Positions 1 through 62,500 of a stretch of 64,000 nt of DNA are shown here, piece after piece. The stretch comes from Malacoraja senta (lineage: Eukaryota). The notes under the pieces are model-generated. The model had not been told where the DNA came from. It saw nothing but the letters and a program-made list of their open reading frames with translations, and did not search any database. Positions within the stretch are counted from its first letter, which is position 1; every line of letters begins with the position of its first letter. The stretch lies in NCBI GenBank assembly GCA_038087875.1, contig CM075994.1, forward strand, positions 6,884,001-6,948,000. The letters are read 5' to 3'. The position numbers were made by a program, and so were the translations under genes.

Positions 1-350
1 TGGAGGCAGGAAACATGTTCCCGTTGTTGGGGGAGGCCAGAACCAGGGGCCACAGTTTAAGAATAAGGAGTAGGTAATTTAGAACGGAGATGAGCAACAT
101 CTTTTTCACCCGGAGGGTTGTGAATTTGTGGAATTCTCTGCCTCAGAAGGCTGTGGAGGCCAATTCACTGAATGCATTCAAGAGAGAGTTAGATAGAGCT
201 CTAAAAGATAGCGGAGTCTGTGGATATGGGGAGAAGGCAGGGACGGGGTACTGATTGTGGATGATCAGCCATGATCAGAGTGAATGGTGCTGCTGGCTCG
301 CAGGGCTGAATGGGCTAGTCCGGCACCTATTGTCTATTGTCTATTGTCTA
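1..350 (+). mobile_element. CR1-type LINE 3' end (ORF2 C-terminus plus 3' UTR), cut by the window edge
   Basis: Encodes the RTRGHSLRIR...FFTRRVVNLWNSLP motif typical of the CR1 ORF2 C-terminus and ends in a (CTATTGT)n tail. Closely similar copies end at about 32750 and 57135. Confidence 0.85.
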
Positions 351-469
351 GGTCTACTCCGCCGTTCAATAATGGCTGATCTATCTCTCCCTGTCAACCC
401 CATTCTCCTGCCTTCTCCCCATAACTTTTGACACCCTTCCTAATGGAACCTGTAAACCTCTGCTTTAAA

Positions 470-1170
470 AATACCCGCACTTGGCCAATAACTCTCTGAA
501 ACTATCCTATCTACATATAGTACCTGTCCAAAAGTCTCTTATATGTCATGATAGTACCTGCCTCAACTATTTCCTCTGGCAGTTCGTTCCTTACACTCAC
601 CTGCTTTTGTTACCCCTCAGGGTCCTATTAAATCTTTCCCCCCTCATCTTACCCAATGTCCTCTGATTCTGGTTTCACCATACTCTGGGAAAGAGACTTT
701 GTGCGTCTACCCAATCTATTCCTCTCATGATTTTATACCTCAAATCACCCCTCCTCTTCCTGCGCTCCAAGGAATAGAGTCCCAGCCTACTCAACCTCTC
801 CCTGTAGCACAGGTCCTCTAGTCCTGGCAACATCCTCGTAAATCTTCTCCAAACCCTTTCAAGATTGACAATATCTTTCCTATAACATGGTGCCCAGAAT
901 TGAACACAATATTCTAAATGCGGTCTCACCAACGTCTTATACAACTGCAACATGACCTCCCTATTTCTATACTCAAAACTCTGACTAATGAAGGTCAATG
1001 TGCCAAAAGCCATTTTGACCACCTTATCTACCTGTGACTCGACCTTCAAAGAACATGCACCTGCACTCATAGATCCCTCTGCTCTACAACACTCTCCAGA
1101 AACCTACCATTCTCTGTGTAGGTCCTGTCTCTGTGAGACTTCCAAAAAATGCAACATCCCACATTTCTGT
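470..1170 (-). mobile_element. CR1-type LINE fragment
   Basis: ORF 675..1070 contains [19 protein letters not shown] and LGLYSLERR, standard CR1 ORF2 C-terminal motifs. Confidence 0.85.
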
Positions 1171-1479
1171 GTATAAGATCACCTCTCATCCTCCTGTGCT
1201 ACAAGGAATAGAGTCCCAGCCTGCCCCAAACTCTCCCCGTTGTGCAGGCCCACATCCTGGCAACATCCCCATAAATTTTCTCTGCATCCTTTCCAACTTG
1301 TCCCCTCATCCTCCTGTGCTCCAAAACACCTTAAACTGAATAATCAGGGCCAGCTTAACAATTTCATAACTTCTCACCAGCAATACGACTTCAAGTTTTC
1401 ACAAGAAATGCACATTTACCGGAGATGTCTGGAATGGACGTGTTTACGTTTTGAAGATTTAAGAGGTTAACGAGAACAA

Positions 1480-1965
1480 TCCCAGGAATGCGTGGGTTAA
1501 CATATGATGAGCGTTTGACAGCTCTGGGCCTGCACTCGCTAGAGTTTAGAAGAATGAGGGGGAACCTCATTAAAACGTACTAAATAGTGAAAGGCCTGGA
1601 TAGAGTGGATATGGAGAGGATGTTTCCACTGGTGGGAGAGTCTAGGACCAGAGGTCACAGCCTAAGAATAAAAGGACGTACATTAGAAAGGAGATGAGGA
1701 GGCATTTCTTTAGTCAGAGGGTGGTGAATCTATGGAATTCATTGCCACAGAAGGCTGTGGATAGATGTGGAGACCAAGTCAATTAATATTTTTAAGGCAT
1801 GGATAGATAGATAGATTCTTGATTAGTACAGGTGTCAGGGATTATGATGAGAAGGCAGGAGAATGGGTTTAGGAGGGAAAGATAGATCAGCCATGATTGA
1901 ATGGCGGAGTAGATTTGATTGTCCGAATGGCCTAATTCTGCTCCTATCACGTGTGAACATGAAGA
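1480..1965 (+). mobile_element. CR1-type LINE 3' fragment
   Basis: Degenerate ORF2 C-terminus plus the 3' UTR GATCAGCCATGATTGAATGG shared with other copies (e.g. 27865-28300). Confidence 0.75.
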
Positions 1966-3134
1966 TTTGAATAGTATCTCTGTTTAGGAATTATGGTGCT
2001 CGGTGACAATGGCCCGCCAAGTTACTGCTTTGTGGGCAACTTTAGTTTAGTTTAGTTTAGAGATACATCGTGGAAACAGGCCCTACGGCCCACCGAGTCC
2101 GTGACGACGAGCGATCACCCCGTAAATTAGCATTATCCTGCACACTAAGGACAATTTACAATTTTTATACAAGGCCAATTAACTTACAAACCCGCACGTC
2201 TTTGGGATGTGGGGGGAAACCGGAGAAAACACACGTGGTCACATGGAGAGCGTGCAAACTCCATACAGACAGCGGCCGACGTCAGGATTAGCTCTCTTTA
2301 AAATTGTCCATTGCGTGCAGGGAGCAAGGATGAACAAGTGACATAATATAGAACTAGTATGAATGGCCGATCAATGGTCGGTGTGGAATCGGTGGGCCGA
2401 AGGGCCTGTTTCCACGATGTATCTCGAAACGAAACCAAACTTCTGATGATATCATAAAGGTCTTTTTTATTTTGTGTATTTTGCTATTTATTAACACAGA
2501 TTGTGACTGGTTGTACCTGATTTTAGTCTTAGAATTCATCAAAGAGCAATCCCACTATGTTATAAATGAAGATCAGAGCAACCGAGCTTTGGAATCACAG
2601 ACTGGTTACAATATGGAAGCAGGCCACTTGGCCCATCAACTCTAATCTATCCAATTTGCATATTTAGCCTCCGTTCTTTTACCCTTTTAAGAAGCAAGCC
2701 TTTTCATTCATGTTGCTCCTTCCAACTAAAATGGGGCATTTACTTGAGACTTTAGAGATACACCGCGGCAACATTATCTTCGGCCCGCGTCGACCAGCGA
2801 TCACCCCGTACACTAGTTCTATCCAACACACACGAGGGACAATCCTACAAACCTGCATGTCTTTGGAGTGTGGGGAAGAATTCGGAGCACCCGGAGAAAA
2901 CCCACTTGGTCACAGGGAGAACGTACAAACTCCGTGCAGACAGCACCCGTAGTCAGGATCGAACCCCAGTCTCTGGCGCTGTGAGGCAGCAACTCTACTG
3001 CTGCGCCACCATGACGATAGTTATGATAAGAATTTCTGTGTTAACTTGTCTCTTTACTTGTATCTTGCATAAAATGTATGTCTGAATGTTGGTTGTAAAC
3101 ATTGAAATAAAACCTACTAACCATGAACTGGGTT

Positions 3135-4690
3135 TGATATCTTTTTTCTTTTATTTCGAACGATTAAAAAAAAAGAAGAAAAGAAAAGATGAAAATGAAT
3201 AATAAATAAAGGAAAATTATATATATACATATATATATACATAAATACATACACACATACATACATATACATGTACATATATACATACATACATATACAC
3301 ATATACACATACACATATACATAACACATATGTACATACATAAATTAAAAAATCAAAAGCCAATTTCAACATAATACACATTAGACTCGTTCGAAAAGGG
3401 ATAGGAAGAAGCCTATGCTTGTCAAGTCCTACCCCCATTCTTCACCATTAACAAATGCAAAATTCAATAAAATAAACTAAACAGACAATTCAAATAAAAC
3501 TACTCCAATCAAGCTATTAAGAAAAAAAGAATAAAAAAAGAAAAGAACAAAAAGAACAAGCACCATTAACATCTGTGAGATTTACATTCTCCTCCTTCCT
3601 CATTACTGTACTTTTCAAAGATATATCTTTTGTACATTTTTTTAAATTGCATTATATTCATACTTTGTTTAATCGTTTCGTCAAGACCATTCCACAAAAC
3701 CACCCCACAAATGGAAATACACATACTTTTTAAATTGGTCCGAGCATAATGCTGTTTCAAGTTTAGTTTCCCTCTAAAGTTATAACCCCCCTCTCTGTCT
3801 TTGAACAGTTTTTGTATGTTTACAGGTAGAAGTTTATTTTTTGCTTTATAAATTATTTGTGCAGTCTTAAATTCTACCAGATCCTTAATCTTTAAGGTGT
3901 GTAATTTTAAATACAGTATATTGGTGTGTTCATGATATCCTACATTGTTTACTATACGAATAGCTCTTTTTTGTAGTGTGCTTAGTGATTGTAAAGTGGT
4001 TTTGTAGGTGTTGCCCCATACTTCCACACAGTAATTTAAATACGGTAACACAAGTGAGCTGTACAGAATATACAGTGCTCTCTCATTCAAAACATGCCTT
4101 GCTTTCCCCATCACTCCAATACTCCGTGCTACTTTTGCTCTCACATGTTTTATATGGGGTTTCCAGCAGATTTTGTGATCAAGAATCACACCCAGAAATT
4201 TATTTTCATACACACTTTCTATTTCAACATTATTTATCATTACTTTTACTTGTGTATTTATTTTGCGTTTTCCAAACAGCATAAGTTTGGTTTTGTTCAA
4301 ATTTAATGATAATTTATTCAAATCAAACCATGTTTTGAATTTACTCATTTCTGCTGTGACCACCTCCAAAGGCTGCTGCAAATTGTCCCCATCACAGAAA
4401 ATATTAGTGTCATCTGCAAATAACACAAATTTCAAGAGGTTTGACACCCTACATATATCATTAATATACAAAATAAATAATTTGGGGCCCAAAACCGACC
4501 CCTGTGGGACTCCACAAGTTATTTCTAAGCATGTTGATTTGCAGTCCCCTATTTGCACAAACTGATGTCTTTTACTTATGTAGCTTCTCATCCACTCTAG
4601 TACAACCCCTCTGATTCCATACTTTTCCAGTTTTTTGATTAGCAAATGATGATCAATTGTATCGAATGCTTTTTTCAAATCTATAAAATC
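3135..4690 (-). mobile_element. 5'-truncated non-LTR retrotransposon (L2/Crack/Daphne-like) with an uninterrupted RT ORF
   Basis: 370-aa stop-free ORF 3566..4678 with KAFDTIDH, GVPQGSVLGP and FADDT RT motifs. AT-rich 3' UTR with a TA/CA microsatellite and AATAAA near 3150. Composition differs from the CR1 copies. Confidence 0.85.
3219..3342. repeat. Compound (TA)n/(TACA)n microsatellite
   Basis: Directly visible, inside the 3' UTR of the LINE above. Confidence 0.9.
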
Positions 4691-4811
4691 TATTGTTTCA
4701 ATGTAAAGCCCAGTGAGTTGTGATTTGTAGCTTACAGTATGCTTGGAGGACCCTGGGCTTACAAAGTCCAGGCCATCCTTGGCTGGGTGATGTCCACAAT
4801 GTATTTCAACA

Positions 4812-5164
4812 GGGCGGCATGGTGGCGCAGTGGTAGAGTTGCTGCCTTACAGCATCAGGGACCCGGGTTTGAACCTGACTACGGCTGCTGTCTGTACGGA
4901 GTTTGAACCTGACTCCATGCTGCCCGTACGGAGTTTGCACGTTCTCCCCGTGACCTGCGTGGATTTACTCCGAGATCTCCGATTTCCCCCCACACTCCAA
5001 AGACGTACAGGTTTGTAGGTTAATTGGCTTGGTGTAAATATAAATTGTACCTAGTATGTGTAGGATGGTGTTTGTGTGCGGGGATCGCTGGTCGGTGCGG
5101 ATACGGTGGGATGAAGGGCCTGTTTCCATGCTGTATCTCTGAATGAAGCTAAACTAAACTAAAC
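4812..5164 (+). mobile_element. tRNA-derived V-SINE (HE1-like)
   Basis: Box A TGGCGCAGTGG, box B-like GGTTTGAACC, central GGAGTTTGCACGTTCTCCCCGTG domain, CR1-like tail and (CTAAA)n end. Small internal tandem duplication at about 4868-4935. Confidence 0.8.
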
Positions 5165-6344
5165 AAAACATCAGTCCAGATCTTACACCATCCCACTATC
5201 TCATTATGCCTGTACTCACTGGAGTTTTGAAGGATGAGGGGGGGACCTCATTGACACTAAGTGAAAGGCCTGGTTAGAGTGGATGTGCAGAGGATGTTTC
5301 CACTAGTGAGAGTGTCTACGCGACCACGTGGGTGACCTCTGGGTGCTCTGGTTTCCTCCCACCTTCCAGAGGCAGGCAGATTTGCAGGTTAATTGGCTTC
5401 TGTATATTGCCTTGTGCGTAGGATAGAACTAGTGTTGTTGAGCTGTAGATTTGCTGCCTGACAGCACCAGAGACCCAGGTTCGATCCTGACTATGGGTGT
5501 GAAAAGGTTCCCTTTACGACACGATACGATAGAACTTTATTTATCCCAGGACGGAAATTGGTCCGCCCGAGGTTAGAATCGAACTCGGGTCTCTGGCGCC
5601 GTGAGGCAGCAACTCTTCCACGACTGCCAGCAGAGATAAAACACAACAAGATACGTGAAACATGAAATTAAAGTGACAGGTGGAAAGTCCAGGATTGGGG
5701 ATGTGAAAAGATTGGGGAGGGGGAAGGGGTGTCAGTCTACCCCACGACAGAAGGGGTAGGAGTTGTATCCATCGACCTCTATAAGATCACCCCTCCTTCT
5801 GCATTCCAGGGGATAAAGTCCAAGTCTGTCTAGTTTAGTTTAGTTTATCATGGCTTATTTGAGCTTAGTTTAGCATAGCTTAACTTTGTATAGCATCCTA
5901 TTATTGTCACATGTACCATGAAAAGCTTTTTAATTGTGTGTTATCCAGTAAAACTATACATTACAGACTATATATTTTTGCAATAAAGCTGTCCACAGTG
6001 TACAGATATGAGATAAAGGGAAAAATGTTTAGTGCAAGATATTTAGTGCCAGATGTTTAGTCCAGTAAAGTACAATTAGACATAGTCTGTGGGTCTCCAA
6101 TGAGGTAGATGGCCTACCCAACTCTCCCTATAGCTCAGGCCCTCATGTCCTGGCAACATCCTTGTAAATCTAGTCTGCACTATTTCCAGCTTAATGGCAT
6201 AATTCCTACAGCAGGGTGACTAAAACAGCACACAATACTCCATGTGCAGCCTCACCTATTTCTTGTACAATTGTAACATCCCAACTTCTACATTCAATGA
6301 CCTGACTGATGAAGGCCAATGTGTTAAAAGACCTCTTAGTTTCA

Positions 6345-6650
6345 TTCAGTTTAGTTTAGAGACACAGTGCGGAAACAGGCCCTTCGGCCCATCGTGTCCG
6401 CATCGACCAGCGATCCCCGCACACTTACACTGTCCTACACACATTAGGGACAATTTACAATTTTACCGAAGCCAATTAACCTACAAACCTGCACGTCTTT
6501 GGAGTGTGGGAGGAAACCGGATATCCCGGAGAAAACCCACGTAGGTCACGAGGAGAAGGTACAAACTCCCTACAGGCAGCACCCGTGGTCGGGATGGAAC
6601 CTGGGTCTCTGACGCTGTGAGGCAGAAACTCTACCGCTGCGCCACCGTCC
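6345..6650 (-). mobile_element. tRNA-derived V-SINE (HE1-like)
   Basis: Reverse complement of the same family. Further copies at about 2040-2290, 2755-3012, 16640-16875, 17195-17472, 18900-19203, 20500-20885 and 21180-21460 (all minus), and 33205-33512 and 54232-54530 (plus). Confidence 0.8.
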
Positions 6651-6743
6651 CACCTCTTTGTCATCTGCGCACTCTGGGTATGTTAAGGTGCTGCCCCTAC
6701 CAGGGCATCGAGGGAGAATTTCTCTGTCTAGCCACCCCATAAT

Positions 6744-7639
6744 AGGGGGGTTGCACGTAAGGTCACTGGGTCATAGGGCTTGACGCACGGAGCCGCTCAA
6801 TCCATCTGGAGGACATCCGTCCCTTCCGGTATATGTTATTAATACAAGAAACGCGTACTTTCCTACTTGTTAAAAACCGCCAAAATGTTGAATATTTTCG
6901 CTGTAAATAATTGTGGGTCGGGGTAAGTGTGAGAGACATGTACCTAAATTCAGAATTCCAAAAGTGAAGCGAAATGAAGGTAAAGAGAAGCGAGAGCTGA
7001 AGGGACAACAACAGCTAAAGTGCTTGGCGAACATTGGCCGTGCAGATATCGGAATTGAAAATATTGGGATTTATCGCGTTTGCTCACTGCATTTCATTAA
7101 CGGTAAGGCATTATTTGGTTTTTTTCTTGATTCCTTTGGTAAATAAAAAGTCTCAGAAGTGGTAAATCTGGTTGTAAATTTTGCTTTAGAGGCGTTTTAT
7201 TTTTGTATGTAAAAACCCACTTGAGAACCATGGGCGATTTAAAAATTTTACAGCCAGATTTATCCCTTCTGAAACTTTAGATTGCAAAGGAATCAAGAAA
7301 AAACACAAATAATGCCTTAGTTGATGAAATGCAGTGAGCAAACGGCCAATGTTCGCCAAGCACTTTGGCTGTTGTTGTCCCTTCAGCTCTCGCTTCTATC
7401 TACCAGCATTTCTCCTCACTTTTTGAATTCTGAAGTAGGCTAAATGTCTCTCACGCTTATCCCGATTTCCATAATTATTTACAGCGCAAAAATTGACAAT
7501 TTCGGCGGGTTTTAACGGGCCCGTTACGCTGGAAACAATGGTAAGTGCTTACCTGCAGTTCATCGCGTGTAATCCATTTGGCGTAGCGTAGCAACAGTAC
7601 GGGTCATGGGTCGTGACCCGACTGCCGTGAAACCTCCCT
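6744..7639. mobile_element. Non-autonomous foldback DNA transposon with degenerate THAP-domain remnants (ISL2EU/Harbinger-like)
   Basis: Imperfect TIRs AGGGGGGTTGCACG...CGTGAAACCTCCCT flanked by AT on both sides. ORF 6913..7146 ends in RVCSLHFING (THAP C-terminal signature). An inverted copy of the THAP segment lies at about 7242-7515. Confidence 0.7.
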
Positions 7640-8819
7640 ATAGGAATCGGAAGGGTAACTTTTTCACACAAAGGGTTAAACGTGGAACAAGCTGCCAGAT
7701 GAGGTAGTTGAGGCAGGGTCTCAACGTTTAACAGTTAGACAGGTACATGGATCGGACAGGTTTGGAGGGATATGGACCAAATGCAGGCAGGTGGGACTAG
7801 TGTAGCTGGGACATGTTGGCCGGTGTGGGCAATTTGGGCCAAAGAACCTGTTTCCACGCTGTATCACTCTATGACTCCATGACGTGCAGCTCCCATGTTG
7901 ACCACTAGATGGGGGCGAAAGCAGGTTCTGAGGCTCCATTGACCCTATCTCAGCGGTACGGATCTGAATGTCCCACACAATTTCTGTGGTTACCCTGTGA
8001 ATTTCTGCAGCATTAGTGAGGGGGAAGGAGGGGGAGATTGACCCAGGACCAAAGGTTGACCCAACCCAGTTTAAACAAGGATCCTTTTGCATAGGCAGGT
8101 ATAGAGCGACATAAAACTGTGTGTAGAATGGAACTGGTTTACACCGAAGATAGACACAAAATGCTGGAATAACTCGGCGGGACAGGCAACATCTCAGGAT
8201 AAAACTGATGGGTGCCGTTTCGAGTCGAGACTCTTCTTCAGACCGATGGTCAGGGAGAGGGAAACAAGAGATATGGCCGGTGATCATAAGATCATGTGAT
8301 AGGAGCAGAGCAAGGCCATTCAGCCCATCAATATAAAAAAAAAACACTAGGTGCTTCAGTAACTAAGCTGGTCAGGGAGCATCTCTGCAGAACATGGGTA
8401 GATGGTTTCTGCGCTGTATCTCTAAACTAAACTAAACTAATCATGTGCCTGTCCAAATAACTTTTACATGTTGAAACAAAGAACTATAGATGCTGGTTTA
8501 TACCAACGATATACACAAAGTGCTGGGGCAACTCAAAGGGTCAGGCAGCATCTCTGGAGCAAAAGGAAGGGTGACACCTTGCTGACTTACTCCAGCACTG
8601 TCTTTGAGTTGTGCAGCACAGAAACAGGCCCTTTGGCCCAACTCGTCCACGCAGACCAACATGCCCCATCTACACTAGTCCCACCTACGTGTGTCGGGCC
8701 CATATTCCTCTAAACCTTTCCTATCCATGTACCTGTCTAAATGTGTTTTAAATGTTATCAAAGTTCCTGCCTCAACTACCTCCTCTGGCAGCTCGTTCCA
8801 TACACCCACCACCCTCTAG

Positions 8820-9560
8820 TTTAGTTTAGTCTCGGCTAATATTGCTACGTGTACCAAGTTACAGTGAAAACCCTTTGTTGCGTGCTATCCAGTCAGAAAA
8901 AAGACTATACATGATTACAATCATGTCCATGTACCAAAGTGTACAGATACAGGATAAAGGGAATAACAATTAGTGCAGGATATGTCCAATAAAGTTTGAT
9001 TAGTTCAAAGTTTTCAAATGAGGTAGATGGGTGGTCAGGACTGCACTCCAGCTGATCAGAGGACTATTCAGTTCCCTTATAACAGCTGGGAAGAAACTCT
9101 CCCTGAATCTGGAGGTGTGTGTTTTTAAACTTCTGTACTTCCTGCCTGCTTGAAGAGGGGAGAAGAGGGAGTGACTGGGGAGATACTGGTCCTTGATTGT
9201 GCTGCTGGCCTAGCTGAGGCAGCGTGAGGTGTAGATGGAGTCAATGGAAGGGAGGTTGGTTTGTGCGATGGTCTGGGCGGCGCCCACACTCTCTACAATT
9301 TCTGACGGTCTTGGATGGAGCTGTTCCCAAACCCGATGCATCCCGATGAAACACGTTCTACGGCGCATCTGTAGAAGCTGGTGAGAGTTGTTGGGGATAT
9401 GAAGAACTTCCTAAGCCTTCTAAGGAAGTAGAGGCGTTGGTGTGTCTTCTTGGTCATTGCTTCAATATGGGTGGTCCAGGAGAAGTTGTTGGTGATATTG
9501 ACTGGTGTTTTCTTGGCCATAGCGTCGATGTGGCTGGTCCAGGATACATTTCTGGTGATA
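8820..9560 (-). mobile_element. Rex1/Babar-like LINE 3' fragment
   Basis: ORF 9293..9595 contains KKTHQRLYFLRRLRKF. A similar copy is at about 21560-22200. Confidence 0.75.
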
Positions 9561-9604
9561 TTTCCTAGCTCCAATATATACAGCAGAGTCCTCATTATCT
9601 TCTA

Positions 9605-10114
9605 ATACGATACAATAGAAATTTATTCATCCCAGGAGGGAAATTGTTCTGCCAACAATCATAAAACACAAGGTACATGAAACATGAAATTAAAGTGACG
9701 AGTGGAAAGGATTGGGGATGTGTAAAGATTTGGGGGGGGGGGGGAGTCCGTCTACTTCACGACAGAAGGGGAAGGAGTTGTACAGTTTGATAGCCACCAG
9801 TTGGTGAAGGTGCTCCTCAGGTTGACCAGTGTGTCATGGATGGAGTGACCTGTATTGTCCAAGATGCTCCGCAGTGTGAGGAGCATCCTCCCCTCCAAGA
9901 TCACCTCCCGTGAATCCAATTCTGTCCCCAAGATGGAGCCAGCCTTCCTGATGAGCTTGTTGATCCTGTTGGCATCCGCGGCCTTCGCCCTGCTGCCCCA
10001 GCATACAACAGCGAAGAAGTTGGCACTGGCCTCCACCAATGGATAGAACATCTGCAGCATCTTACTGCAGACGTTGAAGGAGCGGAGTCTTCTCAAACAG
10101 TACAGACGGTTCTG
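9605..10114 (-). mobile_element. Rex1/Babar-like LINE 3' fragment
   Basis: RLYCLRRLRSFNVCSKMLQMFY...FFAVVCWG. Homologous to the plus-strand copy at 61500-62070. Confidence 0.8.
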
Positions 10115-10144
10115 TTACTTTGTCCCTGATGGGCTCTTCAGTAT
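10062..10144 (-). CDS. Gene A candidate terminal coding exon (cytoplasmic tail DTEEPIRDKVTEPSVLFEKTPLLQRLQ*)
   Basis: Acceptor ggttgttttcag at 10145, 138 nt after the TM exon donor. The phase-1 join is open to a TAA at 10062-10064. A weak internal donor (AAA|gtaaca) is an alternative. Confidence 0.5.
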
Positions 10145-10282
10145 CTGAAAACAACCGTCTTCTCTATTTTTATTCAATGATCCCTGTTGCTCTTGGATTT
10201 CTTCCTGTCAGTTCCAATGAGTTGTGCTCAATTTCTTCCATAGAGTAGTGAGGGTTTGATGAATCTTGAGGCCACAGCTTAC

Positions 10283-10381
10283 CTCTGTGCATTCTCACAG
10301 TGAAACCACAGAGGATCAAGATAAGGACAAGGCTAACATATCGAACGTTGGCTGCGACTGGTATTTGTTTCTTCTCTGACC
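10283..10381 (-). CDS. Gene A transmembrane exon (GSEKKQIPVAANVRYVSLVLILILCGFTVRMHR)
   Basis: Acceptor ccttttccttgttccacag, donor AG|gtaagc. 99 nt, phase 1-1, with a hydrophobic helix followed by basic residues. Confidence 0.8.
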
Positions 10382-11689
10382 CTGTGGAACAAGGAAAAGG
10401 TCAGACACTTCACACATGAATGTCATTCCAATATATTCTTAAAGATGAGGATAATGGGTTCAAGGTGAAAGGGAAAAGATTGAATAGGAAACTGAGGGGT
10501 AACTTTTTCACACAAAGGGTGGTGGGTGTATGCAACAAGCTGCCAGAGGAGGTAGTTGAGGCTGGGACTATCCCAACATTTAAGAAACGGACAGGTACAT
10601 GGATAGGACAGGTTTGGAGAGATATGGGCCAAATGCAAGCAGGTGGGACTAGTGTAGCTGGGACATGTTGGCCAGTGTGGGCAAGTTGGGCCGCAGGACC
10701 TGTTTCCACACTGTATCACCCTATGGCTCTATGATTCTTGTTCCAATATATTCCTGTGAGGAGGAAGTAATTACAGTAAGTAACGTTCCTGCTTAGAGTT
10801 CTCACTTCTATTCAGATCTATTCAATAGAAAGTTAGATTTAGCTCTTAGAGCTAATGGAATCAAGGGATATGGCAAGAAAGCAGGAACGGGGTCCTGATT
10901 TTTGATGATCAGCCATGATCATATTGAATTGCGGTGCTGGCTCGAAGGGCCGAATAGCCTACTCCTGCTACTATTTTCTATGTTTCTATGTTACATTCAA
11001 GGACAACCACCATGAGGGGAAGGGGGGGGAGGAGAGCACAAAGGTAGAACTAGTGTGGGGGAACCACCGTGAGGAAGGGGGGGGGAGAACAATGGAGGAC
11101 CCAGCATGCGATACTTTGTAACCTTGTTGGTGCCCTTTATTTGCCGACTCTTTGCATACCTTCTATGCAAAACTAAGAATTTCACTGTAACTTGTGATTT
11201 GTCACATGTGACAATAAAGTGTAATTAATTAATTAATTCATTATTGTGATTGAACTAAATAGTTTCAATTAAACAGTTACACTCCTATTATTAAGAACGG
11301 CTAGTGTATATATATTTTTTTGTTTAGTTTGGAGATGCAGGGCGGAAACATGCCCTTTGGCCCACTGGGTCCACTCCGACCAGCAATCCCCGCACATTAA
11401 CACTATCCCACACACACTCGGCACAATTTGGCCCATATCCCTCTCACCCTGTCCCAGGTTCAATTTAGCTTATTGTCACATGAACCGAGGTAGAGTAAAA
11501 AGCTTTTGTTGCGTGCTAACCAGTCAACAGAAAGACAATACATGACTTCTATCAAGCCATTTACAGTGTATAGATACATGGTACACTAGGGACAATTTAC
11601 AATTTTACCGAAGCCATACCATTTAGTGCAAGGTAAAGCCAGCAAAGTCCAATCAATGTACCTGTACAAGTACCTGTCTAAATATATCT

Positions 11690-12780
11690 TCCATGATTAT
11701 AGAAGTTGGGAGGTTATATTGCAGTTGTATAATAGGTTGGTTTAGACTGCATTTAGTATTGAGTTCAGTTCTGGGCTCCATGCAATAGGAAAGGTGTTGT
11801 CAAGCTGGAAAGGGTACAGAGAAGATTAACGAGGATGTTGCCAGGACTAGAGGGTCTGAGCTACAGGGAGAGGTTGAGTAGGCTGGAACTCTATCCTTGG
11901 AGCACAGGAGGATGAAGGCTAATCTTATAGAGGTGTATAAAATCATGAGAGCAATAGATTAGGTAGATGCACAGCGTCTCTTGCCCAGAGTAGGTGAATC
12001 AAGGACCAGAGGAGATAGGTTTAAAGTGAAGGGGAAAAGATTTAATCGGAATCGGAGGGGTACCTTTTTCACACAAAGGGTGGTGGGTGTATGGAACAAG
12101 TGCCAGAGGAGGTAGTTGAGGCTGGGAGTATCCCAACAATTACGAAACCATTAGACAGGTACATGGATAGGGCAGGTTAGGAGGGATATGGATCAAACAC
12201 AGGCAGGTGGGACTAGTGCAGCTGGGACATGTTGGTCGGTGTGGGCAAGTTGGGCCGAAGGGCCTGTTTCCACACTGCATCACTCTATGACTGTACAGCA
12301 TACAAACAGGCCCTTCGGCTCAACGAGTCCGCCCCGACCAGGGTTCCTCGCACACTAATACTATCCAACACACAAGGGACAATTTGGCCCATATCCTCTT
12401 TAACCTCTAAAACATATAAATCATATAAAAGTCTTCAGGAGTTGGACAGACTAGATGCAGGAAAAACGTTCCCGCTTTTGGGGGAGTCCAGAACCAGGGG
12501 TCACAGTTTAAGAATAAGGGGTAGGCCATTTTGGACTGAGATGACGAAGAACGTTTTCACCCAGAGAATTGTGAATCTGTGGGATTCTCTGTCACAGAAG
12601 ACAGTGGAGGCCAATTCGCTGGATGTTTTCAAGAGTAGATATAGCTATTAGGTCTAATGGAATCAAAGGATATGGGGAGAAAGGCGGAAAGGGATACTGA
12701 TTTTGCATGATCATATTGAATGGCTGGCTCGAAGGGCCGGATGGCCAACTCCTGCACCTATATTCTATGTTTCTATGTCC
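11690..12780 (+). mobile_element. Two adjacent CR1 3' fragments (about 11690-12295 and 12410-12780)
   Basis: ORF2 C-terminal motifs (ESRTRGHSLRIRG, FTQRIVNLW) with the two different 3' UTR types seen across the window. Confidence 0.75.
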
Positions 12781-13701
12781 CGCTAATATCCTTCAGATCT
12801 ATCTAAATATCCGCGGGGTGACAGGGACAAGAGCGCAGCGGTCCTAACACGAAGTTATTGTGTGATTTAAACAATTATTACAAGCATTGTCTGAGCTGCA
12901 GAGTGTAACTAACAGGAATAAACTCGAATAAAGAAGTGCCTCAACACGAAACGTCGCCCATTCCTTCCCTCCAGAGATGCTCTGCCTGTCCCGCTTATTA
13001 CTCCAGCTTTTTGTATCTATCTTTGGAATAAACGTTTTCCGCGCCCGTGGCATAGCTGGTAGAGATGCTGCCTCACGGCGCTAAAGAACTGTGCGTGTGG
13101 CCTGGTATAAATGCAAAATTGTCCCTAGTGTGTGAAGGATAGTGTTAACGTGCGGGGATCGCTGGTCGGCGCGGTGGGCCGAAGGGCCTGTTTCCTCGCT
13201 GTATCACTAAACTAAACTCAACTTTAAACCAAGTTCAGCACAACTCTTAAATAACTTCCGTTACAGGGGTGCAGAATATGGTCAATAAATGAGCCAAACT
13301 CGTCCCAATTCACATACAGGGCAATTTCACTAGCACTATCCTACACACACTAGCGACAATTTGGCCCATATCCCTCTCAATCTGTCCTACCCTTGCACCT
13401 GCCTACCTGAAGAAGGGCCTCGACCCGAATCCTCACCCATTCCAGAGATGCTGCCTGTCCCGCTGAGTTCCTCCAGCTTTTTGTGTCTATCTTCGGTTTA
13501 ACCAGCATCTGCTATTCCTTCCCACACAACGGTTGTTTTTAAGTTGGGATAGCCCCTGCCTCAACTACCTCTCCGACACCTCGTTTCATACACCCACCAC
13601 CCTTTGCATCAAAGAGTAACCCTTCAGATTCCTATTAAATCAGGTACATGGTCACCAGACGAGACAAACCAAACCCGCTCCCAGTCCGGGGCCGGACCTA
13701 C

Positions 13702-14094
13702 CCGTGGTATCCCCGGAGTCTACAGCGCTGCCGGCGTCGGTCCGCACCGCTAATGTTAAGTTGCGTTTCTCCGTTCCCGCGGAGTGGCTGACGGAGAACT
13801 GGTAAACCCCGCTGTCGTTCACCCGCAAGTCCCTGAGCAGCAGCGAGCCGTTCTCCGGGAAAAGCCACGCCCGGCGTTGAAGGTCACCGTGGGCAGAGCC
13901 TAGCGGGCGAGTTGTAGAGCGGTGGCAGCGAGACCCAGTGAAGCAGGTGCATTTGGCGATAACACCCCCGTCTCTGCTCCAGGTGATCCGGAGATAACCG
14001 CCCGGCTCCGACGCTGTGTAAGACACCGGCAGGGTGACGGACTGACCGGCGCTTCCACTCACACGATCCTGATGCACCCTCAGTATCACCGAGG
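13702..14094 (-). CDS. Gene A IgV-domain exon (CD2/CEACAM/HEPACAM-like V-set, no canonical disulfide)
   Basis: Acceptor ctgtttccacctctag, donor G|gtaggt. 393 nt, phase 1-1. Motifs GQSVTLPV, ITW, LFPENGSLLLRDLRVNDSGVY and NLTLAV. Sequons NGS, NDS and NLT. Confidence 0.9.
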
Positions 14095-14129
14095 CTAGAG
14101 GTGGAAACAGGGAACGGTCTCAATGTGGG

Positions 14130-14680
14130 CAGACACAAAATGCTGGAGTAACTCAGCGGGACAGGCAACAACTCTGGAGCGAAGGAATGGGTGACGCTTC
14201 GGGTCGAGATCCTTCTTCAAACTGGTTAGGGATAAGGGAAACGAGAGAATATGGACGGTGATGTGGAGAGATAAAGAACAATGAATGAAAGATATGCAAA
14301 AAAAGTAATAAAGGATAAAGGAAACAGGCCATTGTTAGCTGTTTGCTGCGTGAGAACGAGAAGCTGGTGCGACTTGGGTGAGGGAGGGATGGAGAGAGAG
14401 TGAATGCCGGGGTTACCTGGTGAAGAAGTTGCCTATTTCCTTCGCTCCATAGATGCTGCTGCACCCGCTGAGTTTCTCCTGTACTTTTGTCTACCGTCAA
14501 TACTCATACTACTGGGCTGTAAGCTGCCCAAGCGAAATATGAGATACCTGTCCTCCAATTTGCGTTTAACTTCACTCTGACAATGGAGGAGATCCAGGAC
14601 AGAAAGGTCAGTGTGGGAATGGGTAGGGGAAATTAAAGTGTTTAGTAACTGAAAGATCAGGTAGGCCCAGGCGGACTGAG
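14130..14680 (-). mobile_element. Penelope-like element 3' remnant (GIY-YIG C-terminus plus terminal repeat)
   Basis: LHCQSEVKRKLEDRYLIFRLGSLQPSSMSID resembles the C-terminus of vertebrate Penelope ORFs. It is followed by the GAAGAAGG..CGACCCGAA..TCACCCATTCC short-repeat sequence. Confidence 0.7.
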
Positions 14681-15559
14681 AGAAGCACATACACAAGCAT
14701 TGTCTGAGCCACAGAGTGTAACTAACTGGAATAGATAACTGGAATATCTGAAGAAGGGTCTCGACCCGAAATTTCACCCATTCCTTCTCTCCAGAGATGC
14801 TGCCTGTCCCGCTGAGTTACTCCAGCATGTTGTGCCTATCTTTGGAATAAACACTCTCTATGCAGGAAGGAACTGCAGATGCTGGTTTACACCGAAGATA
14901 GACACAAAATGCTGGAGTAACTCAGCGGGACAGGCAGCATCTGTGAAGAAAAGTAATAGGAATCTGTCCAGATCCTTCTTCAGACTGAAAGTCGGGGGGA
15001 GAGATGGAAACTAGAGATATGAAAAGGTACAGAACAAATCGGCAACGGTGGCTCAGGAAAGGTGGTGCTCACAATGGCCCAGTGTTGGCTGTGGAGAGGT
15101 GATAACGAAGATATATGAACAGTGAAACTAGCAGGATTCGTACAGGTGTTAGGGGTTATGGGGAGAATGCAGGAGAACGGGGTTAGGAGGGAGAGATAGA
15201 TCAGCCATGATTGAATGGCAGAGTAGACTTGATGGGCCGAATGGCCTAATTCCGCTCCTATCTCTCGTATGATATCAGGATGACTAGGGTGGGGGAGCGA
15301 CGGAGAAATCAGTTTGGAAGAGAGATGTCACACATTCTAAACACAAAGTGCTGGAGGAACTCAGCACTCTGATGGAAAATGGATCAGTTCAGACTCATCG
15401 GGCCGAATGGCTTGTCTCCACGCTGGTGCTTCGCGCTAGTCAGGAGAATTTCGACCCGAAACGCCACCTATTCCTTTTCTCCATACTCTACTCGGTTTAA
15501 CGTGGGAACTTTATGTTCTATGGGTCACCGATTGACTGAATTGGATGGATTGAAAGCTA

Positions 15560-16575
15560 CAACATGGAAACAGGCCCTTCGGCCCGCCCAGTCCAGGCCG
15601 ACCAACATGCCCCATCTAAGCTAGTTCCAATTGCCCATGTTTGGCCCACATCCCTCTAAACCTTTCCTATCCATGTACCTGTCTAAATGTCTTTATAGAC
15701 TTCCCTCAACTACCTCCTTTGGCATGATCAGTCTGAAGAAGGGGTTCGTCCCGAAACGTTGCATATTTCCTTTGCTCCATAGATGCTGCCACACCCGCTA
15801 AGTTTCTCCAGCACTTTTGTCTACCTTCGATTTTCCAGCATCTGCAGTTCCTTCTTGAACATTTTACCTCCTTTGGCAGCTCATTCCTTACACCCACCAT
15901 TCTTTGTTTGAAAAAGTTACCCACAGGTCCCTATTAATTCATTCTCATCTCACCTAAACCTATATTCTCTGGTTCTCTATTCACCTATTCTGGGCAAAAG
16001 ACTGTGCACTCACCCTCTCATGATTTTATACACCTCTATAAAATCACCCCTCAGCTGTCTGCGCTCTATGGAATAAAATCCTAGCTTGCCCAACTTTTCA
16101 CTTTAGCTCAGGCCCTCAAGTCCTGACAACCTCCTCCCAAATCTTCCCTGCACCCTTCTCAACTTAACGACACCATTCATATAGCAGGGTGAATAAATCT
16201 GAACGTTACTCCAAATGCAGCCTCACCAACGTCTTGTAGAACTGTAACATAACATGTGAACTTCTATGCTCAATACCTTGACTGATGAAGGCCAATGTAC
16301 CAAAAACCTCCCTTACCATCCCATCAACCCGAAACGCCACTTTCAGGGAACTATGTACCTGTACTCTCTGCTCCACAACACTCCCCAGGGTCCTACCGTT
16401 CACTGTGAAGGTCCTGCCCTAGTTTGACCTCCTAAAATGCAACACCTCACACTTATCTGAATTAAACATCAACCATGCTTCTGCTCACTTACCCAGCTGA
16501 TCAAGATCCTACTGTAATTTTCGATAACCATCTTCGATATCTACAATTCCACCCACTTTAGTGTCATCTGATAAC
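15560..16575 (-). mobile_element. Degenerate CR1 fragment interrupted by a Penelope-derived short repeat
   Basis: ORFs 16206..16403 and 15706..15924 carry CR1 motifs. The insertion is at about 15725-15860. Confidence 0.7.
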
Positions 16576-17058
16576 TCGGTGCCATGAGTTTCTGGAAGGT
16601 AGTTTCTCCAACATTTTTGTCTACCTTCGGTGTCATTATGTTTAGTTTAGTTTAGTTTAGTTTAGAGATACAGCCTGGAAACAGGCCCTTCGACCCACCG
16701 TGTCCGCACTGACCTGCGATCATCCATATAAAGTTCTATCCTACACACGAGGGACAATTTACAGAGGCCAATTAACCTACAAACCTATAGACTCCGTACA
16801 GACAGCACCCGTTGTCAGGATCAAACCCGGGTCTCTGGCGCTGTAAAAGGCAGGAACTCTACCGCTGCGCCACTGTTATTGACACAAAGCCCAAGTCCCC
16901 GCACAAACCAAGCGTTGAACCTGCGGGATTTGTGAGCACGGTTCACTGGACCGTGCGCTACGCCCAAAGATTATCCCAGCAAATTCCCACAACGCGTTTC
17001 CATCCCAGCTAAATGTTGCAAACATTTGTTATTCTTATCGCTAATTGTGGAGGCTCAC

Positions 17059-17125
17059 CGCTGATGCCGGAGAGATATGTGAAGAGAGCGAGTCCGTACA
17101 TCCCAGGAGTCTCCGAAATCTGCAT
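17059..17125 (-). CDS. Gene A signal-peptide exon (MQISETPGMYGLALFTYLSGIS-A)
   Basis: ATG at 17125 and donor G|gtgagc in phase 1 joins the Ig exon in frame, giving ...SGISA/SVILRV. Candidate acceptor cttctcctcaacag at 17144. Other in-frame ATGs exist at 17182 and 17101. Confidence 0.75.
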
Positions 17126-22244: not shown

Positions 22245-22965
22245 GCACGGGGTGGCGCTGTCTATCTTTTCGTATTTTTTGTTATTTTTAGCGTGTTTAA
22301 AAAAGTTTGTGTTAATGTTCTCTAGTTTGTTTCATGTGGGATGTGGGGGTTGGGGGAACCTTTTTTCAATCTCTTCCCTTGCCGGACATGCGATTGAATT
22401 CCGGATCGTATCTCCGGTCGCTCTGCGGCCTAACATCATAGAGCTTGCGGCCTTGCTCGAGACTGACTTTAAGCCCCACCGCGGGGGCAGTGGACTTACC
22501 ATCGGAGCCTGCGATCCCTTGCCTGGGATCGACGTTCGAACCACGGCCTGCAGATTTCAACGTTGAGGAGCACGCAGTCTCTGGTAGAGACTGATGTTGG
22601 GAAGCTCCAAGTCGCACGAGGTTCGAATAGCACCGTTCCGGGGTCCGATCGCCCGGCGCGGAGAGCTGAGACCCCCCCGACATGCGAGCTTGATCGCCCC
22701 GATGCGGAGGGCTCGAACGCCGGCTCCGGGAGCCAAGATCGATCCGACAACGGAAGGCTCGAAGCCCCCAACCGCGGGAGAACAAAGAAAGGAAGAGATT
22801 GAACTTTTTTTTCACCTTCCATCACAGTGAGGAATGTGGAGGAGTCACTGTGGTGGATATTTATGTTAAAATGTATTTTGTGTGTTTTGTTGCTTTTTAT
22901 TAGTATGACTATGGCAAATCAAATTCCTTGTACGTTGCAAACATACTTGGCTAATAGAGTATGAT
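22245..22965 (+). mobile_element. Unclassified GC/CpG-rich interspersed repeat
   Basis: The 3' part (CTTCCATCACAGTGAGGA...CACTGTGGTGGAT...) recurs at about 35860-36040. Several overlapping ORFs, none with a recognisable domain. Confidence 0.5.
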
Positions 22966-23170
22966 TATGATAGGTTGACATCGACTTGGTGGTCCAAAAA
23001 GCCTGGTTCTATCCTTTACCACTCCCATGAACCATCTCTGGTTGGCGAGATATAGATGTTTGTAGATTGGTTAAAAATACTTATGACTGGTGTGTAACCT
23101 TAATAATGGATGACACGGGTTTTGTTATTATACTACATGTATAATGATCAATATACGAATGGTGATTTAA

Positions 23171-24188
23171 TAATCACCAGGATGTTTAGGCACTAAAAAA
23201 CTCTGAAATAGGCAGGCAAAAAGGCATCGTAAAATTACAAAAAAAGGCACGAAAAGGCATTTATTGACCAAAAAATGCATAAAAAGGCATTTATTTCCAC
23301 CACCAAAATGTGGTTAAAAATGATAATATAAAGGTATACTACATTAAATGACCAAAGTTGCCTGGTTGCACATAATTACTAGCATTATCTGGTGTTAAAC
23401 TCTGCCGTCTGTCAGATAGAATATGCTTCAGTTGTGAAAAGCTTCTGTCTACCTCAGCTGAGGTCACTGGTGCATACCTGAAACAAGCATACAGACTCTA
23501 TATTCATGTCAATAACTTGTGCATTACAACTACCTTTGAGAACTTTAGCTATGTTTTGTATTTCTTCAAGATCTTCGTTAGCTGAAATCACTCTCTCACA
23601 TTTTCCTTGTATGTCTTTATCTACATCACCAGGAACTTTACGAATAGCGTCAGTTACTTTGTTGAAAACATGCAAGTTATTCACTAATGTTTCGCCATGT
23701 TTCTCATGGGAAGTGATAGCTTGTGTGAAGTTGGCAAAATTGGAAGCAATAAAAACAAGATCATGGTGGAGGGACTTTTTTTGCATGATTTCACTGACAT
23801 TGCTGACTGCAACAGATTCTTCTTCTTCAAAACAGTTGATGATTTATTTTATCTTTTCAAAATTTGCAGCATAGTAGAGTACAGCAGAGAGCCATGTACC
23901 TCCCTAGTCTAAACGGTCTGAGGAGTAGCGGAATCTTAGGTGCCATTTTCTTGAACAACTGCACACGTGATGGTGCTTTGAGGAAGATTTTCTTGACATT
24001 GGAAACTAGGCGATCAACATTTGGGAACAAGCTACGTATGTGCTTGGCAATTCTATGAAATCCTTGAGCTAAGCATGTCAAATGCAACATTTTGGGGAAT
24101 AAAACTATAAGTCACAATATTATCCTGGTGAAATCATCAAAAAAGGCATGAAAAGGCACATGGCATTTATGGCAAAATCCTGGCTCTA
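23171..24188 (-). mobile_element. Internally deleted hAT-like transposon with CGGBP1-like transposase remnant
   Basis: HLTCLAQGFHRIAKHIRSLFPNVDRLVSNVKKIFLKAPSRVQLFK (C-x-x-H-type motif), frameshifted. Subterminal AAAAGGCA repeats at both ends. Terminus TAGAGCCAGGATTTT at 24188. Confidence 0.7.
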
Positions 24189-25131
24189 GTGATTATTGTC
24201 CGTAAAATCTGTAAATGGGTAATTTCATTGTACATACTGAACAAACAGGTAAAGAAAGGAACTTGTGTTTCTACTGACTTCTGTGAGGAGGCAGAATGAA
24301 AACACAATGTCAGCATAAACTGATGAAATACTGATGTTCCATTTAATACCTAACAGCTGCCAATACTTTGTCTCCCTGCTGTGTCAAGGGAAGCAAGCCT
24401 CCGAAAGTACAAGCAAATACATGCGTTGGAAAGGATTGCTGTTTTAAGAACAACGCTGGGGAAGGGAATCCTTGACAGTTCCAGCAGGGAACATTATTGT
24501 GCAAGGGAACCACAGTGACCTCCAGGGATACAGCCAAGTAGTCTGGGCAGCCACAGGGAGAAAATTGCAAGATATGGCAAGGATCAGTAGTAGCAGACGA
24601 CAGAATGATCCTGAGGCTAGCAATCTGGCAGGCAATGAACATGCTCAGCAGGCAGAGCAGTTCAGGCATGTGTGCAAGTTTGTATTTGAGTTGAAGATAG
24701 ACACAAAAAGCTTGAGTCAGCCAGCGGGTCAGCCAGCATCCCTGGTGAAAAGGAATAGGTGACGTTTTGGGTCAAGACCCTTCTTTAGTTCACAGACTGC
24801 AGTCAGGACTATCTTCTGAGGCACACGCTCTATGGTAATTGTACCATGAGAGATCTGATTTTCACACAAATCCTTGGATAGATTAGACCTCCAGGCTCTT
24901 CACGCATGGTACCTTAAAACTATGATTCAGGTGCCTGTGACAATTTTGGCAGGTTATCAAGAATTACATTTCTTGAGGCCAAGAGACGAGATAAGCGCAA
25001 TTTTGTTCTCTCCCAGGGTAAGACCAGTTTCAGCTGCAGAGCACCATTTTTCCCACTGTAGGAGGGAAGGGTTTTCCAGGTCCCAGTCTACAGGAGGGAC
25101 ACAGAATTTGCCCTGATTGTGAGTGTCCCTT

Positions 25132-61499: not shown

Positions 61500-62500
61500 T
61501 GATATCCGAAGGAGTTAGTGGTGGACTTTAGGAGGAGAGGAACACCCCTGGCCCCATCAATGGTGTGGAGGTGCAGTTTACCAGGGAGTACAAGTACCTT
61601 GCAGTTCACCTCGACAGTAAACTGAACTGGTCCAGGAATGCTGAGGCACCGTACAAGAAGGGACAGAGAACATCTGTACTTTCTGAGAAGGCTCCGCTCT
61701 CTCAATGTCCGTAGTAAGATGCTGCAGATGTTCTACCAATCAGTGGTGGCTAGTGCCATCTTCTTTGCTCTTGTGTCCTGGCATAGCAGGGCAACAGAAT
61801 TCACAAGCTCATTTGGAAGGCTGACTCTGTCCTGGGGCGGTGTTGGATACATGGGAGGTGGGCTTGGAGGGGAGGATGCTCCACAAACTGCGGAGCTTCC
61901 TGGACAATAACAGCTCATCCCCTCCATGGCACACCTGTGGAGCACCTTCAGCAACAGACTGGTTCCACCAAAATGCAGCACAGAATGCCACAGGTGATTC
62001 TTTTTCTGTTGTGGTCATCAAACTGTACAACTACTCCCCTTCTCCCCCTTCTGTCGTGGGGTAGACTGACTCCTCTTGTTGTTCTGGCACTATTCCATTA
62101 GATTATCAATCTCCCTCCTAAACGCCGATTTATCACTCTTCATAATTTGTCCAACAACTGTGGTGTCATTGGCGAGTTTAAAGATGACGTTGGAACTGTG
62201 TGTGGATACACAGTCATGGGTATAGAGTGAGCAGATCAGGGAACTGAGTCTACAACCTTGAGGTGATCCTGTGCTGATGGTTATCAAGGCGGAAGAGCCA
62301 ATTTCAGCTGATTGTGGTCTGTTGATGAGGAGGTTGAGGATCCAATTGCAAAGGGATGTACAGATATGCAATTCCCTGAGCTTGATAATGTTGAGAGTGG
62401 ATAATGATGCTGAATGCTGATCTGTAGTTGATGAATGGCCTGACGTACACATTCTTATTGTCCAAGTGGTCTAATGCAGGGTGGAGAGCCAGTGCCATCC
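61500..62500. mobile_element. Two Rex1/Babar-like LINE fragments (61500-62070 plus; 62090-62500 minus)
   Basis: HLYFLRRLRSLNVRSKMLQMFYQ on plus; [24 protein letters not shown] on minus. Confidence 0.75.

What the first reader, a model, noticed from the sequence alone, without database searches (positions are those of the whole stretch)
10062..17125. Single-IgV receptor with TM arginine and Tyr-free tail: candidate activating immune receptor
Seen: signal, IgV, TM and tail exons join in phase 1 to a predicted 213-aa protein. The TM reads AANVRYVSLVLILILCGFTV, and the tail has no Tyr-based motif. Established: an N-x(1-2)-R near the outer end of the TM helix with a short tail marks receptors that signal through FcR-gamma/CD3-zeta (e.g. 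GPVI, LILRA, FcalphaRI, NKp46). Inference: a cartilaginous-fish activating receptor built on a CD2/CEACAM-like V domain.
Basis: partly seen in the sequence, partly recalled or inferred. Interest (0 to 1): 0.7.

Follow-up and report, generated by a model that had tools for sequence, protein, structure and literature searches.

The report
Skate paired-family activating immune receptor candidate
This is a skate gene for a small cell-surface antibody-like protein that looks like the 'on-switch' member of an apparently unnamed family of paired on/off immune receptors also found in sharks, frogs, turtles and birds; its function is predicted, not shown.

Summary
Real gene on the minus strand: signal exon (17125-17059), one V-set Ig exon without the B-F disulfide (14094-13702), and a stalk/TM exon (10381-10283). 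Either model gives a short tail with no ITIM/ITSM. The motif is N-x-R, not the published NxxR. The Asn is not conserved, but the Arg is: 21 of 35 shark/ray relatives carry it at the same depth, 19 as Arg-Tyr. Neutral-TM paralogues carry Tyr-motif tails, and one stingray Arg/neutral pair shares 112/118 V-domain residues, the hallmark of paired receptors. Relatives occur in amphibians, turtles, crocodilians and birds; no mammal appeared among 108 hits, and ten literature searches found no description. Some shark Arg members keep an ITIM, and the skate tail may be its frameshifted remnant. Best reading: activating member of a paired IgV receptor family signalling through a zeta/FcR-gamma-type adaptor (about 0.58). 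No RNA, expression or binding evidence was obtained.

The parts
17059..17125 (-). Exon 1: start codon and signal peptide, phase-1 donor
   Evidence: aligns to the N-termini of P0009, P0007 and P0013 from the first Met; the Rhinoraja model starts at the second Met (17101)
13702..14094 (-). Exon 2: single V-set Ig domain without the B-F disulfide; three Cys in C'/C''; three N-glycosylation sequons; phase 1 on both sides
   Evidence: V-set E 3.3e-10; AF2 pLDDT 86; unique sequence in the window
10283..10381 (-). Exon 3: stalk and TM helix; ends at the donor position where family tails change exon
   Evidence: isoform P0204 skips, and model P0188 ends, this segment at the same point
10341..10343 (-). 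Arg167 codon, 16 residues before the first cytoplasmic basic residue, followed by Tyr
   Evidence: same position in 21 of 35 cartilaginous relatives; fifth residue of helix 152-174 in the orthologue
10265..10282 (-). 18-nt in-frame stretch from the TM donor GT to an AG; possible remnant of deleted intron(s), too short to splice (inference)
   Evidence: Sequence; homology downstream
10170..10282 (-). Preferred tail: read-through of the TM exon, 37 codons and TAA, overlapping AATAAA (10174-10169); no ITIM/ITSM
   Evidence: (77% over 73 aa to P0002 across TM and tail)
10135..10264 (-). Probable frameshifted remnant of the family's last cytoplasmic exon (the ITIM/ITSM-bearing exon of shark members)
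   Evidence: best of 702 blocks of the window (22.7 vs 22.4), shuffles 2/1000 and 0/1000; 4/500 and 3/500; weaker at protein level (24/500; hmmsearch no hit)
10062..10144 (-).
9800..10115 (-). LINE-type repeat fragment directly behind the gene's 3' end
   Evidence: (blastn to 61663-61955), depth

Best explanation
A skate type I membrane receptor with one disulfide-less V domain, the activating member of a paired-receptor family. SHOWN: gene structure of exons 1-3, V fold, Arg at a conserved depth, no ITIM/ITSM in either tail model, and a family holding both Arg/short-tail and neutral-TM/Tyr-motif members with near-identical V domains. INFERRED: the V domain binds a cell-surface or pathogen ligand shared with an inhibitory paralogue. 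The Arg near the outer end of the helix pairs with the two Asp of an ITAM adaptor dimer (CD3-zeta, or FcR-gamma if skates have it), which signals through Syk/ZAP-70. The skate lineage probably lost its own tail signalling: a deletion brought the TM exon next to the last exon, which then decayed by frameshifts, turning an Arg-plus-ITIM receptor into an Arg-only one.
For: Arg at -16 in 21 of 35 cartilaginous-fish proteins examined (11 neutral, 3 not parsed), 19 of 21 as Arg-Tyr, from skates, rays, sawfish and sharks. Neutral paralogues have Pro/Ser there, with hydrophobic residues running three further out. The AF2 helix of the orthologue spans 152-174 with the Arg at 156, and the tail is disordered. 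Two or more YxxI/L/V: 0 of 20 Arg vs 6 of 11 neutral; median tail 52 vs 105. V identity between opposite types within a species: stingray 112/118, gull 116/122, crane 118/122. The two TM types are interleaved on the V tree (8 changes; starred branches force at least 5), which fits exon shuffling or gene conversion. An Arg near the top of the TM binds the Asp pair of zeta-zeta or gamma-gamma in TCR-alpha, CD89, NKp30 and NKp46 (PMC13107469 passages). cd247 is expressed in bamboo shark (PMC11372145 passages).
Against: No transcript or expression data. The NxxR motif is absent (0 of 21). In 13 of 21 relatives a Lys lies two residues before the Arg, often behind acidic residues, so the Arg may sit at the headgroups. 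7 of 20 Arg members match an ITIM/ITSM pattern. The label's clustering on the tree is unremarkable against shuffles (35 of 500 as low), and relatives are not independent. FcR-gamma was not found in shark genomes in PMC4016189. 9 of the 12 listed V-exon differences in related runs are non-synonymous (table truncated), which does not show purifying selection. No inhibitory paralogue lies in this window, and none was found in a skate: the only other skate member seen, P0106, is Arg-type.
Confidence: 0.58

Rival explanations
1. Adaptor-independent adhesion or decoy molecule (CEACAM-N/HEPACAM/CD48-like). The Arg is only the outer membrane boundary and the short tail is silent.
For: Only 15 hydrophobic residues lie between the Arg and the next basic residue. 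Lys at -18 in 13 of 21 relatives. The best 19-residue hydropathy windows with and without the Arg differ little. The profile's best solved matches are JAML and CEACAM N domains, and database names are HEPACAM/CEACAM/A33-like.
Against: The Arg is kept at one position from sharks to skates, and also appears in P0010/P0154, whose TM is otherwise of the neutral type. Neutral TMs extend three residues further out. The helix starts four residues before the Arg. Opposite-type pairs are 95% identical in V.
Confidence: 0.2
2. A decaying gene: the tail exons were deleted or frameshifted in skates and the locus is drifting.
For: Degenerate last-exon remnant; a frameshift between this species and Rhinoraja near the stop; 9 of 12 listed V differences are non-synonymous; long branch (0.5) to the skate pair.
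Against: Signal, V and TM frames and splice sites are intact here, and the frames are intact in Rhinoraja despite 18% V divergence, with an in-frame indel. A related run covers 13696-14035 with 15 differences and no gap. A non-synonymous excess is also expected of ligand-binding domains under diversifying selection.
Confidence: 0.12
3. Dual-type or inhibitory receptor (KIR2DL4- or CHIR-AB-like; comparison recalled). The TM donor is used and the true tail exons, with an ITIM, lie further downstream, possibly beyond the window.
For: The donor at 10282 is strong and ancestral. Shark and sawfish Arg members splice there into 51-76 residue tails, some with an intact ITIM or ITSM (P0173, P0175, P0197). 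RefSeq read-through models can be retained introns.
Against: No family-like middle tail exon in 1-10283 (best 7.4, a repeat; 14 correctly cut family peptides score 6.7-28.6, 12 of them above 16). The best match to the last exon lies directly behind the TM exon and is broken.
Confidence: 0.1

Closest known systems
NxxR-type FcR-gamma/zeta-associated receptors (GPVI, LILRA, FcalphaRI, NKp46, OSCAR; Xenopus XFL/ILR/SLAM-like)
   Same: Type I Ig receptor, Arg near the outer end of the TM, short tail, paired with ITIM-bearing relatives (PMC6557307, PMC2413239, PMC4536121 passages)
   Different: No NxxR (N/K-x-R-Y instead); basic rather than acidic inner TM end; V domain rather than C2 domains; the TM exon found no meaningful solved match
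CEACAM family
   Same: Disulfide-less V domain with the Arg-Asp pair; profile hits on CEACAM N domains at E about 1e-7 over the D-F strands only; paired receptors with homogenised V domains
   Different: Activating CEACAMs carry their own ITAM-like motif. Ducks and chicken lack complete CEACAM genes (PMC13278318 passages) but have intact members of this family. Extra C'/C'' cysteines; mostly V-only ectodomains
CD2/SLAM, HEPACAM/HEPACAM2, JAML/A33 V domains
   Same: V-set fold (CD48 Z 13.8, NTB-A 13.3, CAR 14.5); automatic names HEPACAM-like and A33-like; ITSM-like motifs in bird members
   Different: No C2 domain after the V. Structure scores are tied across many V domains (VCBP3 15.0, PD-L1 14.6) at 13-28% identity, so the fold does not assign a family
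NKp30 and skate MDIR/CD300-like receptors (features recalled, except NKp30's TM Arg from PMC13107469)
   Same: Single or few V domains with a charged TM in cartilaginous fish
   Different: Those have the canonical B-F disulfide; none was named among the hits

Membership tests
NxxR-TM activating receptors (LRC type) | NxxR motif at the TM N-terminus | tested here: not met
   N-x-R here; 0 of 21 Arg-type relatives have Asn three before the Arg, 4 of 21 have it two before
NxxR-TM activating receptors (LRC type) | Arg in the outer part of the TM helix | tested here: inconclusive
   Fifth residue of the predicted helix and inside by alignment to neutral paralogues; AF2 has no membrane, and the flank is charged in sharks
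NxxR-TM activating receptors (LRC type) | C2-type Ig domains | tested here: not met
   V-set
NxxR-TM activating receptors (LRC type) | Association with FcR-gamma or zeta | not testable with these tools
Paired Ig receptors (functional class) | Charged-TM short-tail and neutral-TM ITIM members with near-identical ectodomains in one species | tested here: met
   Met for the family (stingray 112/118), not shown for this skate (no paralogue in the window)
Paired Ig receptors (functional class) | No inhibitory motif in the activating member's tail | tested here: met
   Both tail models lack ITIM/ITSM; the true 3' end is unverified
Paired Ig receptors (functional class) | Leukocyte expression | not testable with these tools
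   No RNA holder listed
CEACAM | V domain without B-F disulfide, with Arg-Asp salt bridge | tested here: met
   Invariant R100 and D119 in alignment A2; shared by other V domains, so not diagnostic
CEACAM | ITAM-like tail in activating members; family without complete genes in ducks and chicken | tested here: not met
   0 of 20 Arg members have two YxxI/L/V; intact duck and chicken members against PMC13278318 passages
CEACAM | Synteny with the CEA locus | not testable with these tools
   No genome held; the only hint is a kittiwake member annotated under TMLHE
CD2/SLAM or HEPACAM | V followed by C2 domain(s) | tested here: not met
   No second Ig exon found between 13702 and 10381; the orthologue is V-stalk-TM
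CD28 family including CD28X | YxC...PPP CDR3 motif and EYEDM-type tail | tested here: not met
   No F-strand Cys and no such motif against PMC11599192 passages

The most novel reading that the evidence does not exclude
An undescribed, jawed-vertebrate-wide family of paired IgV receptors (sharks, rays, amphibians, turtles, crocodilians, birds; not seen in mammals) whose cartilaginous-fish activating arm uses an Arg-Tyr TM, distinct from NxxR, to engage CD3-zeta, possibly before FcR-gamma existed. The skate gene would record the step from a dual Arg-plus-ITIM receptor to a purely activating one by exon deletion and frameshift decay.
Probability: 0.3. Interest if true: 0.75.

Novelty: new variant of a known kind. 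Interest (0 to 1): 0.55.

Why it matters
Few activating innate receptors are known in cartilaginous fish, and it is unsettled which ITAM adaptors they use. A conserved Arg-Tyr TM in a paired family offers a direct test of whether Arg-to-zeta coupling outside the TCR dates to the first jawed vertebrates. Chicken and duck members (e.g. chicken LOC771657, uncharacterized) make the family testable in a standard immunology model. The design principle itself, paired receptors with a TM Arg, is well known.

Tried and rejected
RNA support: no RNA holder listed. The four runs laid behaved as genomic contigs running across intron boundaries, and the joint table was swamped by repeats, so it says nothing about splicing. 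No whole genome is held, so synteny and skate paralogues outside the window could not be searched. First test of the tail-remnant idea at protein level was weak (24 of 500 shuffles, rank 7 on the minus strand), and hmmsearch with the tail alignment found nothing there. The nucleotide-level tests were devised afterwards and the location was noticed by eye, so the idea is rated about 0.65, not shown. The family HMM hit on the read-through is not independent, because P0002 is in the alignment. Fold searches and the ESM Atlas gave only generic V domains; CEACAM/CD2 membership is neither shown nor excluded by them. The TM exon has no meaningful PDB sequence match. The elephant shark supplement search gave 0 hits for all six adaptor terms, probably a text-extraction limit, and was not used. 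Earlier findings: nothing in three look-ups. No complex prediction was run, as no adaptor sequence was available.
Full report
Observation. All join in phase 1 with GT/AG ends and give 213 aa without internal stop. Exon 2 is a V-set domain (Pfam E 3.3e-10; AF2 mean pLDDT 86). It lacks both canonical Cys and has three Cys in the C'/C'' hairpin and three sequons. The closest protein in the databases is an uncharacterized RefSeq model of the skate Rhinoraja longicauda (P0002; 93/113 V identity), so the window is inferred to be a skate.

The tail. In the window this gives 223 aa with a 41-residue tail, one Tyr that is Asp in the orthologue, and no ITIM/ITSM; the stop overlaps an AATAAA. The donor at 10282 is nevertheless the family's ancestral one: shark and ray members continue there into a short middle exon and a last exon. 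No middle exon was found in 1-10283. The sequence that starts 18 nt behind the donor resembles the last exon in pieces spread over three frames. A back-translated profile of 12 tails ranks it first of 702 blocks, narrowly (22.7 vs 22.4), with 2/1000 and 0/1000 shuffles reaching it. Five tails gave 4/500 and 3/500; the protein-level test gave 24/500 and hmmsearch nothing. I read this as a probable, unproven deletion that brought the TM and last exons together, followed by frameshift decay. No RNA was available: no RNA holder was listed and the four runs laid behave as genomic DNA.

The family. phmmer over 1.84 billion representatives gave 352 hits, best 150 listed. Two named searches gave 18 and 108 proteins. 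The close ones come from skates, stingrays, mantas, sawfish, at least seven shark genera, frogs, a caecilian, turtles, alligator and many birds; weaker, multi-domain teleost hits start below E 1e-23. No mammal is among the 108, though only the 8000 best candidates were scored. Names are 'uncharacterized' or automatic HEPACAM/CEACAM/A33-like. Several members share a contig in sawfish (LOC127585841-843), stingray and catshark, which suggests clusters; none lies in this window.

The TM. I examined 35 cartilaginous-fish proteins (isoforms included). In 21 an Arg lies 16 residues before the first cytoplasmic basic position, 19 times followed by Tyr; 11 have Pro or Ser there; 3 were not parsed (two neutral, one isoform without TM). 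Two residues before the Arg stands Lys in 13, Asn in 4, His in 2 and Ile in 2; none has NxxR, the motif defined in PMC6557307, PMC4536121 and PMC2413239 (passages). So the Arg, not the Asn, is the signal. AF2 on the orthologue gives one helix, 152-174, with the Arg at 156 and a disordered tail. Neutral paralogues stay hydrophobic three residues further out, which places the Arg inside the helix. Against this, the shark flank is charged and hydropathy alone cannot fix the boundary. The same Arg-to-inner-basic spacing in TCR-alpha is recalled, from no call. PMC13107469 (passages) describes the Arg/Asp-Asp assembly for TCR-alpha, CD89, NKp30 and NKp46, and a Tyr that points into that network in the TCR; a similar role for the conserved Tyr here is speculation.

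Pairing. With one isoform per gene (20 Arg, 11 neutral; P0188, P0007, P0172 and P0204 left out), two or more YxxI/L/V occur in 0 of 20 against 6 of 11, strict ITIM/ITSM matches in 7 of 20 against 8 of 11, and median tails are 52 against 105 residues (three neutral tail starts were cut a little early). In one stingray an Arg, Tyr-free member and a neutral three-Tyr member share 112/118 V residues. Gull (116/122) and crane (118/122) show pairs of ITSM/ITIM and Tyr-free forms, where the short form has a Cys-rich TM behind a more distant Arg. Six frog members and one tarpon member printed have an Arg at the start of the TM, most with short tails. On a V-domain tree of 32 rows (P0016 and P0170 dropped by the extraction pattern), the TM types need 8 changes, at least 5 forced by starred branches; 35 of 500 shuffles are as low. 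The types are therefore interleaved, as expected from exon shuffling or conversion. Relatives are not independent samples. That several shark Arg members keep one ITIM or ITSM, while others show it decayed, suggests a dual ancestor.

Adaptor. PMC4016189 (passages) found no FcR-gamma in shark genomes in 2014. cd247 is expressed in bamboo shark T cells (PMC11372145 passages), and CD3 chains are cloned from catshark (PMC6795676 passages). Searches did not settle FcR-gamma, so zeta is the safer guess. The supplement of PMC3964593 returned no hit for any term and may still bear on this.

Comparison and novelty. It works like an LRC-type activating receptor but fails that group's NxxR and C2 tests. 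It is CEACAM-like in the V domain (PMC4079198 and PMC5112662 passages) but lacks ITAM tails and is intact in ducks and chicken, where PMC13278318 (first eighth of the text and passages) finds no complete CEACAM. It is not CD28X (PMC11599192 passages). Fold searches give only tied V domains. Searches listed no paper whose title or abstract describes the family; the chicken locus name and TMLHE with ITIM gave 0 papers. Subscription journals are not covered, so 'undescribed' is provisional. PMC4690019 gave only a reference line.

Verdict. Activating paired-family member 0.58, adhesion or decoy 0.2, decaying gene 0.12, dual receptor with unseen exons 0.1. New variant of a known kind; interest 0.55, mostly for the family rather than for this one gene.

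Noticed in passing
P0161/P0163 (kittiwake): A bird family member is annotated as an isoform of TMLHE, hinting that the bird locus adjoins TMLHE; a synteny anchor worth checking.
   Followed up: partly
P0069, P0219, P0217, P0216, P0224, P0022 (bird-type members): Bird short-tail members have an unusual Cys/Tyr-rich TM with no central charge, paired with ITSM/ITIM forms of 77-97% V identity; signalling mode unknown.
   Followed up: partly
P0003, P0006, P0024, P0011: Duck, frog and chicken members carry 2-6 tandem copies of the V domain.
   Followed up: no
window 10170-10180: One-base frame difference from the Rhinoraja model in an A-rich run shortens the tail by 11 residues; run X1 agrees with the window.
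   Followed up: partly
window 3566-4846 (-): 426-codon reverse-transcriptase ORF of a LINE (Pfam RVT_1 E 2.8e-24); many other LINE fragments; about half of the window is self-repeated.
   Followed up: partly
window 22911-24689: Non-self-repeated block with open frames (23454-23843 and 23857-24111, minus) that look transposase-like by eye; no Pfam hit.
   Followed up: partly
window 7000-7450: Internal inverted duplication of about 100 nt inside a non-coding element, seen by eye; possibly a MITE.
   Followed up: no
window 43945-44173: 96-nt tandem repeat (2.4 copies) within a GC-rich stretch with long open frames; no Pfam hit.
   Followed up: partly
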